DNA of 64,000 nucleotides from a virus. The translations under genes were made by a program, and so were the position numbers. Numbering within the stretch: the first letter of the stretch is position 1; each line of letters begins with the position of its first letter. The notes below the pieces were generated by a model, which was not told the origin of the DNA, searched no databases, and was given only the letters and a program-made list of their open reading frames with translations. Below are positions 36,756-61,937 of the stretch, in pieces. The DNA lies in the IMG/VR virus record IMGVR_UViG_3300035698_012970, positions 24,152 through 88,151 of that record; one strand, given 5' to 3'.

Positions 36756-36842
36756 TCAGCAAATCCTTATATCGTTCCTACCATGTAAATGGGAGAGCGA
36801 ACTTAGACAGCTTAATAGACTTATGTTAATTATGTTTTTCAT
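36756..36842 (-). CDS. Leader peptide 1 (MKNIINISLLSCLSSLSHLHGRNDIRIC)
   Basis: 28-codon ORF between promoter and terminator; codons 8-20 are all Ser/Leu/Cys/His. Confidence 0.85.
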   Translation of the reverse strand: MKNIINISLLSCLSSLSHLHGRNDIRIC

Positions 36843-36848
36843 TGTTTC

Positions 36849-36922
36849 TTATAGATTATATATCAATTTTGTTTCGTTTTTTATTTAATACAAATATAGA
36901 TCTTATTTACGTAATAAAAAAA
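36849..36922 (-). promoter_or_regulatory. Stacked promoters of tRNA operon 1
   Basis: Early-type motif at 36891-36922, GAAAC-N17-TATAA at 36849-36875, GATATATA at 36857-36864. Confidence 0.75.
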
Positions 36923-48320: not shown

Positions 48321-48844
48321 TATTATCGAATTGAATATTATTAGTTATAATATTCATTATATCGATCAATAAAAGTTTCATATGAAAAATCCTCATCCTC
48401 ATAATCCGAATATATTAATTCCCAGATATTCGGATCCCTTTTATATAATTCAAGATTTGTAACATGAGGTGCTAAAACATTAAATACAAAATCATCTAAT
48501 ATTCGTGGATTACTGTCAACCTGAGATTTTTGAAATAGTTTTAGAAATTTTTCCTTCTCAATATCGGAAATCGGAAATTTATCAACTTCTTCTTTTGTGA
48601 AATCTTGATCTAAAACATGAAATTCTTCCTCGTCTCCAACGAACCAACATCTAATCATATAATCAATTGTATTGTCATCATTAGTAAAGTTTTTTACCAT
48701 TTCTGTAAATTCACCTTTAAGTAATGGTATATCAAACCCTACATTTCTCAGATCCTTTACTAAATCGGAATTCTCATCTTCAAAGATTTCATAGCTGTCT
48801 ATATGTTCCATTAACTATTGTTTTTTATATATATATCTTATCTG

Positions 48845-48920
48845 TAGCGAGAGTGGGAATCGAACCCACGACCTCAGCATTATGAGTGCTGCGCTCTTAA
48901 ACCAACTGAGCTACCTCGCC
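48845..48920 (-). tRNA. tRNA-Met(CAT), elongator-type
   Basis: CAGCA-CTCATAA-TGCTG; Ile2 not excluded. Confidence 0.85.
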
Positions 48921-49457
48921 ATCACTTCCATTGGGTTTTTCTATTATGTTTCCAAGTTCGGTACATACGTATTTGGTAACTGTATATCTGTTTTCTAGGA
49001 GGTTTAGCTCCTCTTGTTTTCAATCTAGGATATAGATTGATACACTCATCCCAATATAAGGGAAATTCTATTTTTAACCAGATTTTCTTATATTCCTGGT
49101 TGTTGTTTGCTTTGTTCAGTTTTCCTCTGTATCTATTTATGCTCATAATTTTAGGTTTAGTTTTAACTATACCTAATGAGCGTCAAATTTCTTTTTCATT
49201 TTATTAAGATTTTACTAATTCATTCCACCATTGTATTTTTGGTCTTATATACGATCTATGAAAGTGAACCCTATTAAGAGTAACCAAAAAATATGGGAAA
49301 GCATATTTAGGATTCCCATTATGCTTTTCTTTGTATTCTTCATACAATTTAGAATATGATTTTTCCATAATTAATTTTAAAGATCATTTAGTTTGTAAAT
49401 AGAGATCAAAATCCATGAAATATGATCCACAAAACATGGATTGATGATCTACAAATG

Positions 49458-49533
49458 TTGGAAGAGGGGGACTTGAACCCCCGAAACCTCTACATTATCA
49501 GTGTAGCGCTCTAACCAACTGAGCTACCTTCCA
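49458..49533 (-). tRNA. tRNA-Ile(GAT)
   Basis: CTACA-CTGATAA-TGTAG. Confidence 0.92.
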
Positions 49534-50179
49534 AAGTGTTTATTATATTAGTAATTGATTCTATGATATTATCATCTGGCCATTTTATTCGATAAACTTT
49601 CCATCCTTGTGATTTCAATTTGGAATCTTTTTCTATATCAACTTTTTTTCTTTCTGGTTTATTGTGTTGTTGTCCATCAATTTCAATGACAATCTTATCT
49701 TCATGTAGTGCAAAATCAGCAAAATATTTACCAAATTTCCATTCATATTCATATTCTATACCCAAGCTATCTAACGTTCTAATTGCTATAGATTCTGGAT
49801 AAGACGGCTCTAGTTTTTTTCGAGTTTTCCAACCAAAAGAGACGTCACCATCAGCATGTCTTTTCTTAGCCATTATTGAATTCTTTTCTGCAATTTTTTC
49901 TTTGTAACCTGGTGTTTTCCATTTCAATTCAGCCGAACATGATCTAGAGCAAGTTTTCTGATTTTTTTTTCTCCATTTTACTTCAAACTCTTCCTTACAG
50001 TTCTGACAAATTAACTTTATTTTACCAGGTCCTTTATTAAACAACGTATCGGATACTTTCTTATTGAGATCTTCTCGATTTACTTTAGTAGCAAACCCTC
50101 TAGCGCATTTTATAGAACAAAATCTTCCGGAACCATAAGATCCATCATGTTTAACCCCGCAATTTTCACAAATCATCAT
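49511..50179 (-). CDS. DUF559/Vsr-like homing endonuclease with MICENC N-terminal module
   Basis: YFADF...IVIEIDGQQH...D..L...GWKVYRI; the stop codon lies inside tRNA-Ile. Confidence 0.85.
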   Translation of the reverse strand: MMICENCGVKHDGSYGSGRFCSIKCARGFATKVNREDLNKKVSDTLFNKGPGKIKLICQNCKEEFEVKWRKKNQKTCSRSCSAELKWKTPGYKEKIAEKNSIMAKKRHADGDVSFGWKTRKKLEPSYPESIAIRTLDSLGIEYEYEWKFGKYFADFALHEDKIVIEIDGQQHNKPERKKVDIEKDSKLKSQGWKVYRIKWPDDNIIESITNIINTLEGSSVG

Positions 50180-50232
50180 ATTTTAGATACTTTCTTCTAT
50201 ATATCATTTGAACCTGTGACTTTTTAGTTATG

Positions 50233-50309
50233 TCGGCAAAGAGGGATTTGAACCCCCGTGTGACCAGCTAACCTTTCTACCGGATATCAGCCGGAGGGTA
50301 TACTTGCCG
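50233..50309 (-). ncRNA. D-armless tRNA-like RNA with GAT loop
   Basis: Acceptor CGGCAAG/TTTGCCG, CCGG-CTGATAT-CCGG, T-arm GGGGG-TTCAAAT-CCCTC. Confidence 0.65.
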
Positions 50310-50310
50310 A

Positions 50311-50372
50311 TGGTCCAGGGGATTTGATGCTGTCAAACTATCAAACTCTAAGGAGTGACGTTATCGCCCCGG
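50311..50372 (-). ncRNA. Short CCA-ending RNA with G3.U70/A73 acceptor-like stem
   Basis: CCGGGG...CCCTGG-A-CCA. Confidence 0.45.
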
Positions 50373-50441
50373 ATGTTTTCTTTGTGCTTTTGTCGATGTT
50401 GGGGCACTGCCAAAACAGTAAAAACCTTACTATAACCCATG

Positions 50442-50529
50442 CTCTTGGGGTAGGATTCGAACCTACGATGGAACTTTCGCTCACCGGATTAACAGTCCGG
50501 ACCGTTCGGCCAACTACGGCAACCCAAGA
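50442..50529 (-). tRNA. tRNA-Asn(GTT) with long variable arm
   Basis: CCGGA-CTGTTAA-TCCGG; G73. Confidence 0.85.
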
Positions 50530-50541
50530 ATTTTATTTTAG

Positions 50542-50614
50542 CGCTCATAGAGGGATTCGAACCCCCAACCCTTACGTTAACAGCGTAGCGCTCTACCATT
50601 GGAGCTATATGAGC
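50542..50614 (-). tRNA. tRNA-Asn(GTT)
   Basis: TACG-CTGTTAA-CGTA. Confidence 0.9.
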
Positions 50615-51291
50615 TAGTGTATAAACTTATATGCTTCTTGTATCCAATATTTCGGATTATTAAACATATCTTTCCATTTTATTCTCAAAATTTGCCAACC
50701 TTCTTCTATTAAAGATTGGTCTTTTCTTTTGTCTCGTTCAATATACTCTTCGAATCTTTGATGCTGTTCCCCATCAATCTCTATAGCTTTCTTTTTGTTA
50801 ACCCAAGCAAAATCTATAGCATATATTGAAACTGGATATTCAGTTTCGTACTCTTTATCCAGGAAATTATTTTCTATTACTCTTTCAAAAAATTCTTCTG
50901 GGTATGATTTTTCGTTATTCCACCTACTTTTACCTATATTCCAAGCCCTTCCATCTTTATGAGCTTTTTCCATTGATTCGCTAATCAAACTTTTACTAAA
51001 TTCACTATGTTTTCTCCCAATTCCAGATTTAGCAATTTTTGCTAGCCTTTCTTCTCTCTTTGGGTTCATCTTACATAACGTCTTATGTCCTCCTAGTTTC
51101 CACCCATTACTAAATTCATTTCCACAGTATTCACAAATCCAAGGACCTTCAGACTTTTTCCTAATCCTCTTTGATTTACCTTTACTTCTACCTTTCTTAT
51201 AACTTTCTCCTCTGTTGTGTGATGATACATGACCACCTAAAGATTCTTTCTTATCAAACTTTTTACCACAAATTTTACATTGATGTTTCAT
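50614..51291 (-). CDS. C2H2 zinc-finger plus DUF559-like homing endonuclease
   Basis: CKICGKKF...LGGH; YAIDFA...AIEIDGEQH...GWQILRI. Confidence 0.85.
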   Translation of the reverse strand: MKHQCKICGKKFDKKESLGGHVSSHNRGESYKKGRSKGKSKRIRKKSEGPWICEYCGNEFSNGWKLGGHKTLCKMNPKREERLAKIAKSGIGRKHSEFSKSLISESMEKAHKDGRAWNIGKSRWNNEKSYPEEFFERVIENNFLDKEYETEYPVSIYAIDFAWVNKKKAIEIDGEQHQRFEEYIERDKRKDQSLIEEGWQILRIKWKDMFNNPKYWIQEAYKFIH

Positions 51292-51360
51292 ATGTTATAT
51301 ATCACCTCAATGTCGCGAAACCAGCGAACTGTGTGAATAAAGTACGAAAATGCGTCATTG

Positions 51361-51434
51361 CACGCCTGGTAGGATTCGAACCCACGACACCTGGTGTTGG
51401 AGACCAGTGCTCTAGCCAGCTGAGCTACAGACGT
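51361..51434 (-). tRNA. tRNA-Trp(CCA)
   Basis: CTGGT-CTCCAAC-ACCAG. Confidence 0.92.
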
Positions 51435-51533
51435 GTATATTTTCCGATTCACCGATTACCCCAATTACGGTGTCTACCGGCTTCATCGCCGGAATGCTAT
51501 TTTTGCTCGAGGATTACATTAAATCGGGAGCAG

Positions 51534-51607
51534 CAACTATGACCGGACTCGAACCGGCGACCTCCTGGGTGACAGCCAGGGATTCTAACCAACTGAACTA
51601 CATAGTT
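51534..51607 (-). tRNA. tRNA-Asp(GTC)
   Basis: CCTGG-CTGTCAC-CCAGG. Confidence 0.92.
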
Positions 51608-51819
51608 GTATATTTTATAATGTAGAAATTAATTCTTGATAACTATAATAGGATCTCCATTTATGATTGCTTGTGGATTTTCTATGTGTTTATTAAGAAA
51701 ATATAAATTATTTTTATTATAGCAATTATCTATAGAAAAAATGTATTTTTCCCCTATCTTATTTATTCTATATATCTAACTCGAACTTGGATTTTATCAA
51801 ATCTCTCGTTTAAAACTAG

Positions 51820-52094
51820 TACCCCCGGAGAGACTCGAACTCTCAACCTACGGCTTAGCTTACCAGCTACAGTTTTCACTGCCACATATGTGTTTGTGGT
51901 CTGGACTATCCCTTCATCATATTAATTTAACTTAGATGACCGCCGTCTAGTCTCTACACCTTCCTATCGCTAGGCTTGGCTCGGGATTACCATTTTAAAG
52001 GCTTCCCCGAATTTGACGGTTTACATTTTATAAATTTCTCTATAAAAGCTCCTATTCGAAGGCCGTTGCTCTTAATCCATTGAGCTACAGGAGC
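51820..52094 (-). tRNA. tRNA-Arg(TCT) interrupted by a group I intron
   Basis: Exons join as ACGGC-CTT|CTAA-GCCGT. Confidence 0.88.
51859..52058 (-). mobile_element. Group I intron (200 nt, no ORF)
   Basis: P AATTCGGGGAA, Q AATCCCGAGC, R TAGAGACTAGA, S AAGGGATAGTCC; follows a U and ends in G. Confidence 0.9.
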
Positions 52095-52099
52095 AAATT

Positions 52100-52118
52100 A
52101 CCAACATGTCAAAGAACT
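52100..52118 (-). promoter_or_regulatory. boxA-like antitermination motif
   Basis: AGTTCTTTGACATGTTGGT, identical to 61642-61660. Confidence 0.75.
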
Positions 52119-52160
52119 TGTCAATTTTTGTTTTGGTTGACATTCCAAAAGTTTACTTAT

Positions 52161-52192
52161 AAAAAAATAGGTTCCATTTCTGAAACCTATTT
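52161..52192 (-). terminator. Attenuator terminator of tRNA operon 2
   Basis: AATAGGTTTC-AGAAAT-GGAACCTA-TTTTTTT. Confidence 0.85.
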
Positions 52193-52217
52193 GTATATTA
52201 TCGTTACTGTTTTAAAG

Positions 52218-52304
52218 TCACGTTTGATGCAATAGGTTACATGGATTCATATCCCAGATAAAATCTGATCTAAAATTATTAATATTTCTTCCTTGTTCTA
52301 ACAT
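52218..52304 (-). CDS. Leader peptide 2 (MLEQGRNINNFRSDFIWDMNPCNLLHQT)
   Basis: 28-codon ORF between promoter and terminator; core rich in Arg/Asn/Ile/Asp/Trp/Met. Confidence 0.8.
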   Translation of the reverse strand: MLEQGRNINNFRSDFIWDMNPCNLLHQT

Positions 52305-52324
52305 TGTACTTTAAATTTGTTACC

Positions 52325-52413
52325 TTATATATACTTTTAAATTTCAAAAAGTTTCGTTTTTTGTATTTTATTTTGATAATGTAAGAATATATCTTTTATA
52401 CGTAATAAAAAAA
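52325..52413 (-). promoter_or_regulatory. Stacked promoters of tRNA operon 2
   Basis: Early-type motif at 52382-52413, GAAAC at 52351-52355, GTATATATA at 52326-52334. Confidence 0.7.
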
Positions 52414-52434
52414 TGAAATATGATTTATTTTTTA

Positions 52435-52800
52435 TTACTTACGCATTTTTTCAAGTTCCTTAATAGACTTTCCTTTTAATACTTCACCTTGTTTTTCAGC
52501 AATCAATTCATCAATATGATTGTTATGACGCTTTATCTCAGAAGCATTTGATAACTTCTCAGCCTCATCTACTTTACTGTTAAGTATGTCAAGAACTATA
52601 TCAAATCTTAGCTTCAAGTCTGCATCTTTTTTAGATTTTTTAACTAAGAAAGATTTCCGTCCACTTACTTCATACTCAGCTTCAAGACTTATTGCTAATA
52701 CATCTAAATCAGCTTGGGATAAGTCCCATAATTGTTCTACGGAAAGGTTACCTCTGTTTGTTGTAATTCTTAATTTTTGTTTACTTGCTTTTTTGTACAT
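52435..52800 (-). CDS. Conserved phage hypothetical protein
   Basis: LRITTNRGNLSVEQLWDL motif; partner of the upstream 708-aa gene. Confidence 0.7.
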   Translation of the reverse strand: MYKKASKQKLRITTNRGNLSVEQLWDLSQADLDVLAISLEAEYEVSGRKSFLVKKSKKDADLKLRFDIVLDILNSKVDEAEKLSNASEIKRHNNHIDELIAEKQGEVLKGKSIKELEKMRK

Positions 52801-61400: not shown

Positions 61401-61495
61401 TGACCCCTCTGGGGCTCGAACCCAGGACCCCCTGATTAAATCTTGATATTTCTTAACTAAAGTCAGGTGCTCTAAGCCAACTGAGCTAAGAGGTC
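61401..61495 (-). tRNA. tRNA-Lys(TTT) with a 20-nt anticodon-loop insertion
   Basis: CCTGA-CTTT[insert]TAA-TCAGG; other arms canonical. Confidence 0.8.
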
Positions 61496-61641: not shown

Positions 61642-61660
61642 ACCAACATGTCAAAGAACT
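61642..61660 (-). promoter_or_regulatory. boxA-like antitermination motif
   Basis: AGTTCTTTGACATGTTGGT, preceded by a TGTAAAT/ATTTACA hairpin. Confidence 0.75.
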
Positions 61661-61745: not shown

Positions 61746-61856
61746 TTACATGATATTATGTAAAGCCCAAAATCCTCCCTCTTCATACTTCTTATAGTAT
61801 GCTACCACGACAGAGCGTGAAGAGTTGTTTACAGTATTTAAGCTATTCAAATTCAT
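61746..61856 (-). CDS. Leader peptide 3 (MNLNSLNTVNNSSRSVVVAYYKKYEEGGFWALHNIM)
   Basis: 36-codon ORF between promoter and terminator; core of Arg/Val/Tyr/Lys/Glu codons. Confidence 0.85.
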   Translation of the reverse strand: MNLNSLNTVNNSSRSVVVAYYKKYEEGGFWALHNIM

Positions 61857-61876: not shown

Positions 61877-61937
61877 TTATATATCTTTTCCTTTTAAAGT
61901 TTCACCAAATATAGGAAACTTTTACGTTATAAAAAAA
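61877..61937 (-). promoter_or_regulatory. Stacked promoters of tRNA operon 3
   Basis: Early-type motif at 61906-61937, GAAAC-N17-TATAA at 61877-61903, GATATATA at 61878-61885. Confidence 0.75.

What the first reader, a model, noticed from the sequence alone, without database searches (positions are those of the whole stretch)
52161..52304. Attenuator 2: Arg/Asn/Ile/Asp/Trp/Met leader
Codons 6-20 read R N I N N F R S D F I W D M N. Twelve of 15 match downstream Arg-TCT (both Arg codons are AGA), Asp, Trp, Asn x2, Ile and Met. AACCTATT (52231-52238) duplicates the terminator 3' arm and can sequester the 5' arm AATAGGTT. Two Phe codons have no cognate tRNA in this window, which may point to a lost tRNA-Phe.
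Basis: partly seen in the sequence, partly recalled or inferred. Interest (0 to 1): 0.85.

Follow-up and report, generated by a model that had tools for sequence, protein, structure and literature searches.

The report
Leader-peptide attenuator gating phage tRNAs
A tiny 28-codon gene written mostly in the codons read by the seven phage tRNA genes just downstream, and wired to a switchable transcription stop, probably lets this phage make those tRNAs only when ribosomes decode their codons slowly; I found no published account of this control for tRNA genes.

Summary
ORF 52304..52218(-) has 12 of 15 central codons readable by the downstream tRNAs: Arg-UCU, Asp, Trp, Asn x2, Ile and Met. It is the only one of 72,430 stop-free 15-codon windows in the 88-kb genome to reach 12. 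A strong intrinsic terminator (52192..52165 plus U-run) follows 25 nt after the stop.

A copy of its 3' arm (52238..52231) lies in the last codons of the ORF. In folds of the RNA cut before the terminator 3' arm (nascent RNA), this copy pairs with the terminator 5' arm.

Two sister units in the same genome match their own, different tRNA sets. At least seven further unrelated phage leaders from IMG/VR do the same. Own-versus-other matching gave a diagonal of 147.5 against 49.5±11.9, reached by none of 100,000 permutations.

In most of them the antiterminator sits in the same place.

The best reading is a multivalent ribosome-mediated attenuator that gates a tRNA operon and is followed by an rrn-type boxA. 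Nothing is experimental. Leader 2 has no orthologue in the collections, and its antiterminator is weak. The "lost tRNA-Phe" idea has no support.

This scan has noted the same class before on other phage DNA. I found no paper describing it.

The parts
52384..52412 (-). Promoter-like composite motif: a T-run, a near-palindrome of TTACGTAA type, and a TATATTCT box resembling the Bacteroidota -7 element
   Evidence: The composite motif occurs only 3 times in the 88-kb genome, each time upstream of one of the three leaders. The transcription start is not known.
52323..52333 (-). GTATATATAAG box 18 nt before the leader ATG, shared with leaders 1 and 3. It may be a second promoter -10 or a translation element.
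   Evidence: There are nine copies in the genome, all on the coding strand, and three of them precede the leaders.
52218..52304 (-). Leader ORF, 28 codons plus stop: MLEQGRNINNFRSDFIWDMNPCNLLHQT
   Evidence: No Shine-Dalgarno sequence precedes the ATG of this leader or of its two sisters, nor that of the neighbouring 121-aa gene (read by eye).
52245..52289 (-). Regulatory run, codons 6-20. Twelve of 15 can be read by the operon's own tRNAs, and all six tRNA specificities are represented.
52229..52241 (-). Antiterminator strand (core AACCUAUU, 52238..52231), lying in codons 22-26, 10-22 nt before the stop codon
   Evidence: Duplex with the terminator 5' arm is -9.0 kcal/mol, p = 0.03 against shuffles. 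It is the minimum-energy pairing of RNA truncated at 52177.
52161..52192 (-). Intrinsic terminator: 12-bp stem (52192..52181 pairs with 52176..52165), 4-nt loop, and a U-run to 52161
   Evidence: hairpin -12.7 kcal/mol.
52120..52141 (-). Small hairpin (GUCAA/UUGAC) just before the boxA-like element, in a boxB-like position
   Evidence: Read. Leader 3 has a hairpin in the same place.
52100..52117 (-). boxA-like 18-mer, 5 nt before tRNA-Arg
   Evidence: Identical in operon 3. It has 56 exact IMG/VR hits, mostly 26-35 nt before the first tRNA of phage arrays. In a Bacteroidales genome it sits 28 nt before 23S rRNA in the 16S-23S spacer.
51820..52094 (-). tRNA-Arg(UCU): exon 1 at 52094..52059, group I intron at 52058..51859, exon 2 at 51858..51820
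   Evidence: Rfam RF00028, 81.5 bits; ARAGORN with introns; splice-site reasoning.
48844..51607 (-). Rest of operon 2: tRNA-Asp (51607..51533), Trp (51434..51360), a 225-aa endonuclease ORF, Asn (50614..50541), Asn-like with a long variable arm (50529..50441), a 222-aa endonuclease ORF, Ile-GAU (49533..49457) and Met-CAU (48920..48844)

Best explanation
Leader 2 is a ribosome-mediated (leader-peptide) transcription attenuator that gates tRNA operon 2 of a phage that probably infects Bacteroidota.

Transcription starts at a promoter region found only in front of the three leaders. The 28-codon ORF is translated while RNA polymerase moves towards the terminator.

If the codons for Arg(AGA), Asn, Ile(AUU/AUC), Asp and Trp are decoded quickly, the ribosome reaches the stop codon. 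There it covers the antiterminator strand (52238..52231). The terminator (52192..52165) then forms and transcription ends at the U-run.

If decoding of any of those codons is slow, because the matching charged tRNA is scarce, the ribosome stalls at about codons 6-17. The antiterminator strand is then free to pair with the terminator 5' arm as soon as that arm is made. Polymerase reads through, passes the boxA-like element and transcribes the tRNAs. The result is negative feedback on the supply of exactly the tRNAs that the operon encodes.

Shown here: the anatomy, the statistics, the alternative pairings in silico, and the recurrence of the design with co-varying codon sets.

Inferred: translation of the leader, stalling, coupling of ribosome and polymerase, and the direction of the response.
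For: 1. Codon match. 12 of 15 codons match, the only such window among 72,430 in the genome. The operon-2 codon set makes up only 25% of codons in this phage's long ORFs.

2. Specificity. The three leaders of this genome each score high only with their own operon's set. L1 (SLLSCLSSLSHLH) matches His/Leu x3/Ser x2/Cys. L3 (VVVAYYKKYEE plus CGC) matches Glu/Lys/Val/Tyr/Arg-ACG. Cross scores are near zero in the runs. Leader 3 uses CGC (1% of Arg codons). Leader 1 uses CTC (3% of Leu codons) and TCC (4% of Ser codons), each of which one of its operon's tRNAs reads.

3. Co-variation across phages. In a 12 x 12 leader-by-array matrix the own set ranks first for 9 leaders. The diagonal sum is 147.5 against 49.5±11.9, and none of 100,000 permutations reaches it. 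An automated census without trimming gave at least 10 independent leaders with p<=0.01 for their own whole array. Overlapping ORFs in other frames gave p>0.4.

4. Terminators. Every leader is followed 18-33 nt after its stop by a strong intrinsic terminator.

5. Antiterminator. A strand complementary to the terminator 5' arm lies inside the last 3-8 codons in W2 (p = 0.03), W3, L050a, L049, L050b, L062 and L031. In L092 it lies further upstream (27-36 nt before the stop), and in L040 it lies just after the stop. For W2 it is the minimum-energy fold of RNA truncated before the terminator 3' arm.

6. Frame conservation. Orthologous leaders L050/L082/L075/L049 differ by many substitutions but have no indel inside the ORF. 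Indels occur only in the UTR and after the stop. The antiterminator and terminator are invariant.

7. Promoters. In many loci there is no room for a promoter between the terminator and the boxA-like 18-mer. In W2 no sigma-70-type site lies there.

8. The promoter motif occurs only before the three leaders.
Against: - No RNA or ribosome data exist. No RNA run holds this DNA.
- Leader 2 has no orthologue. The nearest relatives, at 57-67% identity in the neighbouring 708-aa protein, carry tRNAs directly behind the upstream gene with no leader or terminator. The unit is therefore dispensable, and its frame conservation cannot be tested.
- The antiterminator is weak: an 8-bp core, with the terminator state at -17.7 against -12.2 kcal/mol when the antiterminator is enforced. 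Read-through would have to be kinetically controlled.
- Three of the 15 codons (TTT x2, TCA) have no cognate phage tRNA.
- By standard ribosome-footprint geometry, codons 18-20 lie so close to the antiterminator that a ribosome stalled there would mask it.
- The transcription start is unknown. A degenerate -7-like box right after the terminator cannot be excluded as a promoter.
- Some leader-like ORFs elsewhere (the L048/L062 type, L092) match their arrays poorly. L048 and L062 also have a canonical promoter after the terminator.
Confidence: 0.7

Rival explanations
1. The unit is a real tRNA-supply sensor but works by a different route. Translation of the leader could control Rho access, RNA processing or transcript stability. 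Alternatively, a pairing other than 52238..52231 with 52191..52184 could be the switch.
For: The W2 antiterminator is weak and only modestly significant (p = 0.03). In full-length RNA the terminator is 5.5 kcal/mol more stable. W1, L058 and L060 show no significant antiterminator by the same test. An untranslated tRNA transcript is a natural Rho target, and a boxA-like element follows.
Against: The antiterminator strand sits at the same place, in the last codons of the ORF, in most independent leaders. It is invariant in the L050 family. Every unit has a canonical intrinsic terminator.
Confidence: 0.13
2. The ORF is a chance one and the terminator is an ordinary one. The hairpin simply ends the upstream transcription unit, and the tRNAs are made from their own promoter downstream of it.
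For: ORFs of 20-30 codons are very common in this 32% GC DNA: 87 of at least 20 aa in 6.5 kb. The nearest relatives make do without the unit. The L048-type loci do have a promoter after the terminator.
Against: The codon match is unique genome-wide. It is repeated with different sets at the two sister units and in unrelated phages. Only the leader frame matches, and the overlapping frames do not. No sigma-70-type or exact Bacteroidota -7 box lies in 52098-52160 (sequence).
Confidence: 0.07
3. The ORF encodes a small protein that acts in trans, and its composition only incidentally resembles the tRNA set.
For: Several leaders share an N-terminal MK(T/N)I..NI-like start, which could hint at a peptide family.
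Against: The central runs differ completely between leaders and track each array's tRNA content. Substitutions between orthologues mostly swap residues within the array's set rather than conserving a peptide.
Confidence: 0.05
4. The element is a T-box-like or other RNA that binds tRNA directly.
For: It lies upstream of translation-related genes and contains a terminator/antiterminator pair.
Against: No Rfam family matches, either at gathering score in the window or at E<=1 in 48700-52450 apart from the tRNAs and the intron. The region is too short (about 145 nt) and has no conserved T-box-like structure. A specifier-codon model cannot explain a run of 12 cognate codons for six tRNAs in one reading frame.
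Confidence: 0.02

Closest known systems
Multivalent leader-peptide attenuators of enterobacterial amino-acid operons (thrL for Thr/Ile; the ilvGMEDA leader for Ile/Val/Leu), and trpL, hisL, leuL, pheL. The comparison rests on textbook knowledge; pheL is also covered in PMC3082878.
   Same: A short translated ORF carries a run of regulatory codons. An intrinsic terminator lies before the first regulated gene. A mutually exclusive antiterminator forms depending on where the ribosome sits. Several amino acids are sensed in a single leader.
   Different: The regulated genes are tRNA genes, not biosynthetic enzymes, so the sensed quantity and the product are the same molecules. Up to 12 specificities are sampled once or twice each, rather than a homopolymeric run. 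The layout has three segments (antiterminator strand inside the ORF end, then the terminator) with no clear 1:2 pause hairpin. There is no sequence or Rfam similarity. The context is a phage and probably Bacteroidota, without Shine-Dalgarno sequences.
Inducible long tRNA array (trn operon) of Anabaena sp. PCC 7120 (PMC8421152, PMC10272220)
   Same: A supernumerary tRNA array is kept off and switched on when translation is impaired.
   Different: There, control is at the promoter, by direct repeats bound by the repressor TrcR. Neither paper mentions a leader peptide, attenuation or a terminator.
T-box riboswitches
   Same: Transcription attenuation that reads the state of a specific tRNA.
   Different: A T-box binds uncharged tRNA directly through a specifier codon, needs no ribosome, senses one tRNA and regulates synthetase or amino-acid genes. 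No T-box match is present here.
rrn-type boxA (NusB/NusE) processive antitermination
   Same: An 18-mer resembling boxA lies at the head of the untranslated tRNA transcript. The same 18-mer lies just before 23S rRNA in a Bacteroidales rrn spacer.
   Different: It is a separate element downstream of the attenuator. Binding by Nus factors was not tested. The resemblance to E. coli boxA is from memory.

Membership tests
Ribosome-mediated (leader-peptide) transcription attenuators | Short ORF upstream of the regulated genes, with a run of codons cognate to what is regulated | tested here: met
   12 of 15 codons, unique among 72,430 windows; p = 0.00075 against pooled phage windows.
Ribosome-mediated (leader-peptide) transcription attenuators | Intrinsic terminator between the leader ORF and the first regulated gene | tested here: met
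   12-bp stem plus U-run at 52192..52161, 25 nt after the stop and 66 nt before tRNA-Arg.
Ribosome-mediated (leader-peptide) transcription attenuators | Mutually exclusive antiterminator whose formation depends on ribosome position | tested here: met
   In silico only. 52238..52231 pairs with 52191..52184; this is the minimum-energy fold of nascent RNA. p = 0.03 against shuffles, and the position is the same in most other leaders. The pairing is weaker than the terminator.
Ribosome-mediated (leader-peptide) transcription attenuators | Promoter upstream of the leader and none between the terminator and the genes | tested here: inconclusive
   A motif unique to the three leaders lies upstream. 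No sigma-70-type site lies in 52098-52160. No transcription start data are available.
Ribosome-mediated (leader-peptide) transcription attenuators | The leader is translated, and read-through rises when the cognate charged tRNA is scarce | not testable with these tools
   No RNA holder is listed for this DNA. No cultured phage-host pair is available.
Ribosome-mediated (leader-peptide) transcription attenuators | Reading frame kept in relatives that keep the operon and terminator | tested here: inconclusive
   No orthologue of leader 2 was found in IMG/VR, the JGI metagenomes or the Logan contigs. An analogous family, L050/82/75/49, keeps its frame.
Rfam leader families (Trp, His, Leu, Thr and similar leaders) and T-box | Match to the covariance model | tested here: not met
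   No such hit at gathering score in the window or at E<=1 in 48700-52450.
rrn boxA antitermination element (for the 18-mer at 52117..52100) | Conserved boxA-like sequence at the head of stable-RNA transcripts, also present in host rrn operons | tested here: met
   56 phage loci carry it, mostly just before the first tRNA. Bacteroidota genomes also carry it, including 28 nt before 23S rRNA in L099. Binding by Nus factors was not tested.

The most novel reading that the evidence does not exclude
The three attenuators may form an on-demand counter-defence. Each would sense depletion of a particular subset of host tRNAs, for example by anticodon nucleases or other tRNA-cleaving defence systems. 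It would then switch on only the phage tRNA block that replaces that subset. The phage would in effect read which tRNAs the host is destroying.
Probability: 0.25. Interest if true: 0.9.

Novelty: new variant of a known kind. Interest (0 to 1): 0.8.

Why it matters
Why phages carry tRNA genes has been debated for decades. The two main ideas are codon compensation and escape from tRNA-targeting defences (PMC10264068, PMC11555353, PMC11464382). How phage tRNA arrays are regulated is essentially undescribed.

A leader whose codons mirror the tRNAs behind it would mean that the phage measures decoding speed for exactly those codons and supplies tRNAs on demand. That gives a directly testable link between the state of the host tRNA pool and phage tRNA expression.

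It would also extend classical attenuation to stable-RNA genes, to Bacteroidota-type hosts that lack Shine-Dalgarno sequences, and to sensing of up to a dozen specificities in one leader. The leader sequence also offers a practical read-out of which tRNAs belong to one transcription unit.

Tried and rejected
**Orthologues of leader 2.**
- IMG/VR and JGI metagenome scans with the neighbouring 708-aa protein found relatives of at most 67% identity. None has the unit at this position.
- The phage GenBank collection gave only tRNA and intron matches.
- A scan with the 249-aa protein upstream of leader 1 found nothing.
- A scan with the 266-aa protein near operon 3 gave 80 loci but only 7 tRNA clusters and one candidate leader.

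**Expression.** No RNA holder is listed. Contigs of four salt-lake DNA runs cover the leader only with identical sequence, so they offer no natural variants.

**Lost tRNA-Phe.** There is no tRNA-Phe in the 88-kb contig. Nothing tRNA-like with a Phe anticodon lies in the operon. The only extra tRNA-like signal (50309..50233, 26.7 bits) reads as a degenerate GAU-type. The idea is rejected as unsupported.

**pyrBI-type reading**, in which a close-following ribosome melts the terminator. I rejected it because the stop codon is 25 nt upstream of the 5' arm, out of reach of the ribosome by standard footprint geometry.

**Weaker statistics.**
- The whole-ORF binomial score is diluted by flanking codons and was replaced by a segment score.
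- The test that every tRNA species is represented is less selective: 0.19% of windows pass.

**Technical.**
One was a script that located features by several typed motifs. I then took coordinates by position instead.

Full report
**What is there**

The window is part of a single 88,151-bp contig with 32% GC. Nearly all genes lie on the minus strand. All 19 tRNA genes lie in three minus-strand clusters.

The finding sits at the head of the middle cluster. Reading the minus strand, the order is:

- a promoter-like region (52412..52384);
- a GTATATATAAG box (52333..52323);
- a 28-codon ORF (52304..52218, MLEQGRNINNFRSDFIWDMNPCNLLHQT);
- 25 nt of spacer;
- an intrinsic terminator (stem 52192..52165, U-run to 52161);
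- a small hairpin (52141..52120);
- an 18-mer (52117..52100);
- 5 nt later, the first tRNA.

That first tRNA is Arg(UCU), interrupted by a 200-nt group I intron (Rfam RF00028, 81.5 bits). Only a split after U34 gives a U before the 5' splice site, a G before the 3' splice site and a 7-nt anticodon loop. ARAGORN's "Thr-cgt" call is therefore a mis-parse.

Asp, Trp, Asn, a second Asn-like tRNA, Ile(GAU) and Met(CAU) follow. Two zinc-finger plus DUF559/REase_MTES_1575 endonuclease genes are interspersed, probably homing endonucleases.

**Is the observation more than chance?**

Codons 6-20 are RNINNFRSDFIWDMN. Twelve of the 15 can be read by the anticodons downstream.

I scanned every stop-free 15-codon window in all six frames. 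This is the only window with at least 12 matches among 52,648 in the window and 72,430 in the genome. The same codon set makes up 25% of codons in the phage's long ORFs.

Against random stop-free windows from about 90 other phage loci, a segment log-odds score gives p = 0.00075. All six tRNA specificities are represented in the run.

The detail that both Arg codons are AGA is true but weak, because AGA is 65% of this phage's Arg codons.

**Sister units**

- Leader 1 (36842..36756) has the run SLLSCLSSLSHLH in front of His, Leu(UAG), Leu(UAA), Leu(GAG), Ser(GCU), Ser(GGA) and Cys. It ranks first of 79,819 windows.
- Leader 3 (61856..61746) has VVVAYYKKYEE plus one CGC in front of Glu, Lys, Val, Tyr and Arg(ACG).

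In each central run, the other two operons' sets score close to zero.

The codon choices are telling. Leader 3 spells Arg as CGC, which is 1% of Arg codons in this phage. Leader 1 uses CTC (3% of Leu codons) and TCC (4% of Ser codons), each read by one of its operon's tRNAs. It also uses TCG (4% of Ser codons), for which ARAGORN found no cognate tRNA.

The upstream composite motif is a T-run, a TTACGTAA-like near-palindrome and a TATATT[TC][GT] box. It occurs exactly three times in 88 kb, once before each leader.

**Relatives and the wider class**

No orthologue of leader 2 exists in the collections I could search.

- Phages whose 708-aa neighbour protein is 57-67% identical carry tRNAs directly behind the upstream gene, with no leader or terminator.
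- Contigs from salt-lake DNA runs cover the leader only with identical sequence.

A distant relative, L031, does have the design. Its ORF MKPIYNSYYTPTSNPSQ... is followed by a terminator and then Asn, Tyr, Thr and Pro tRNAs.

The 18-mer gave 56 exact IMG/VR hits, mostly 26-35 nt before the first tRNA of large arrays. Promoters there are of the Bacteroidota type. Many of these loci have the order promoter, short ORF, terminator, 18-mer, tRNAs, with no room for a promoter after the terminator.

Their leaders match their own arrays:

- KLVNKQIVKHVIQFCQNWYIR before Phe, Ile, Gln, Lys, Val, Tyr, Cys, His, Arg, Trp, Leu, Asn;
- ISPSILRPSIR before Ser, Arg, Pro, Ile, Met, Leu;
- LLGGTEADTLTRTAM before Asp, Ala, Met, Gly, Leu, Thr, Glu.

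In a 12 x 12 matrix of leaders against arrays, the own set ranks first for 9 leaders. The diagonal sum is 147.5 against 49.5±11.9, and none of 100,000 permutations reaches it. Four arrays were cut post hoc to their first block for that test.

An automated census without any trimming looked for an ATG ORF of 12-60 codons plus a terminator within 130 nt of the first tRNA. It gave at least 10 independent leaders with p<=0.01. ORFs overlapping them in other frames gave p>0.4.

In the orthologous set L050/L082/L075/L049 there are many substitutions in the ORF but no indel. Indels occur only in the UTR and after the stop. Replacements mostly stay within the array's amino-acid set. The antiterminator and terminator are invariant.

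It could not be run for leader 2 itself.

**Mechanism**

In most leaders a strand complementary to the terminator 5' arm lies inside the last 3-8 codons of the ORF, 2 to 24 nt before the stop. In L040 it lies just after the stop, and in L092 it lies 27-36 nt before it. Individual p values run from below 0.002 to 0.04.

For leader 2 this strand is 52238..52231. RNA truncated at 52177, before the terminator 3' arm exists, has this pairing as its minimum-energy fold (-10.1 kcal/mol). In full-length RNA the terminator state is -17.7, against -12.2 kcal/mol with the antiterminator enforced.

The geometry below uses standard ribosome-footprint sizes and is inference. A ribosome at the stop codon covers the antiterminator strand but cannot reach the terminator 25 nt downstream. 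A ribosome stalled at about codons 6-17 leaves the strand free. A stall at codons 18-20 would mask it.

Fast decoding should therefore give termination, and slow decoding of the operon's own codons should give read-through. That is negative feedback on tRNA supply.

The switch must be kinetic, because the terminator is the more stable state. Translation of the leader, the stall, and coupling with polymerase are all inferred.

**The 18-mer**

It is identical in operons 2 and 3, and a small hairpin precedes it in both. In genome contigs it occurs mainly in Bacteroidota. In a Bacteroidales genome it sits 28 nt before the 23S rRNA in the 16S-23S spacer, at both rrn copies.

This fits an rrn-type boxA that loads an antitermination complex onto read-through transcripts. 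The resemblance to E. coli boxA is from memory, and binding was not tested.

Together with the -7-like promoter boxes and the lack of Shine-Dalgarno sequences, it suggests a Bacteroidota host. The DNA occurs in salt-lake metagenomes.

**Rivals**

- Chance ORF plus ordinary terminator. This is contradicted by the genome-wide uniqueness, the two sister units and the cross-phage co-variation.
- A trans-acting micro-protein. This does not fit runs that differ completely between leaders and track tRNA content.
- A T-box-like RNA. There is no Rfam match, and it cannot explain a frame-specific run for six tRNAs.
- A different route from the same sensor, such as Rho, processing or another pairing. This remains possible, because leader 2's antiterminator is weak and three leaders show none by my test.

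**tRNA-Phe**

No Phe tRNA exists in the contig. The one extra tRNA-like signal in the operon is a degenerate GAU-type. Other leaders also carry one to three non-cognate codons. The "lost tRNA-Phe" idea has no support.

**Novelty**

Seven full-text searches found no paper describing leader-peptide attenuation of tRNA genes.

The nearest case is the inducible tRNA array of Anabaena. It is controlled at its promoter by the repressor TrcR, and neither paper mentions a leader peptide, attenuation or a terminator.

This scan has noted the same class on other phage genomes since October 2026. Those are unchecked notes and not independent evidence.

I class the unit as a new variant of a known kind: ribosome-mediated attenuation applied to tRNA operons, with a leader that samples the operon's own tRNA set.

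**Limits**

- Nothing is experimental.
- The comparative sample was largely anchored on the 18-mer.

Noticed in passing
window 50441-50529 (-): The second 'tRNA-Asn(GUU)' is 89 nt long and has a long variable arm of about 17 nt, like class II tRNAs (Ser/Leu/Tyr). It scores only 44.7 bits. Which amino acid it carries is unclear. If it is charged through the long arm, it could mistranslate Asn codons.
   Followed up: partly
window 50233-50309 (-): A weak tRNA-like element (Rfam tRNA 26.7 bits, just under the cut-off, not called by ARAGORN). It has a good acceptor stem and T arm, a GAU-like anticodon loop, a degenerate D arm and a long extra region. It may be a decayed tRNA or a tRNA-like RNA.
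   Followed up: partly
window 51859-52058 (-): A 200-nt ORF-less group I intron inserted after U34 of tRNA-Arg(UCU). Many related intron variants are present in the same salt-lake metagenomes: contigs with 13-27 differences pile up on 51890-52016.
   Followed up: partly
window 52100-52117 and 61642-61659 (-); L038-L093; L099: An 18-mer resembling rrn boxA is conserved exactly in 56 IMG/VR loci, mostly just before the first tRNA of phage tRNA arrays. It also lies 28 nt before 23S rRNA in a Bacteroidales rrn spacer. Phage tRNA arrays seem to borrow the host's stable-RNA antitermination signal.
   Followed up: partly
window 49511-50179 and 50614-51291 (-): Two genes inside the tRNA array encode a zinc finger plus a DUF559/REase_MTES_1575 (PD-(D/E)XK) endonuclease. 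They are probably homing endonucleases, as in the T4 tRNA region.
   Followed up: partly
window 52397-52411, 36906-36920, 61921-61935 (-): A near-palindrome of TTACGTAA type inside a T-rich motif occurs only upstream of the three leaders in 88 kb. It may be a binding site for a dimeric regulator, which would add a second layer of control over the tRNA operons.
   Followed up: partly
window 51603-52101, contigs of runs X2 and X3: Short metagenomic contigs join the boxA-like region to tRNA-Asp through 39 unrelated letters, without tRNA-Arg and its intron. A related phage therefore has a different first tRNA behind the same signal.
   Followed up: no
window 61401-61495 (-): tRNA-Lys(UUU) with a 20-nt insertion in the anticodon loop. 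ARAGORN calls it only when introns are allowed.
   Followed up: no
L048, L053, L062, L073 and related loci: A leader-like ORF (MMNL..IQQ.SNNP.SGNGRG...) plus terminator is followed by a canonical Bacteroidota promoter and then boxA and tRNAs. It matches its array poorly. It may be a decayed or differently wired variant.
   Followed up: partly
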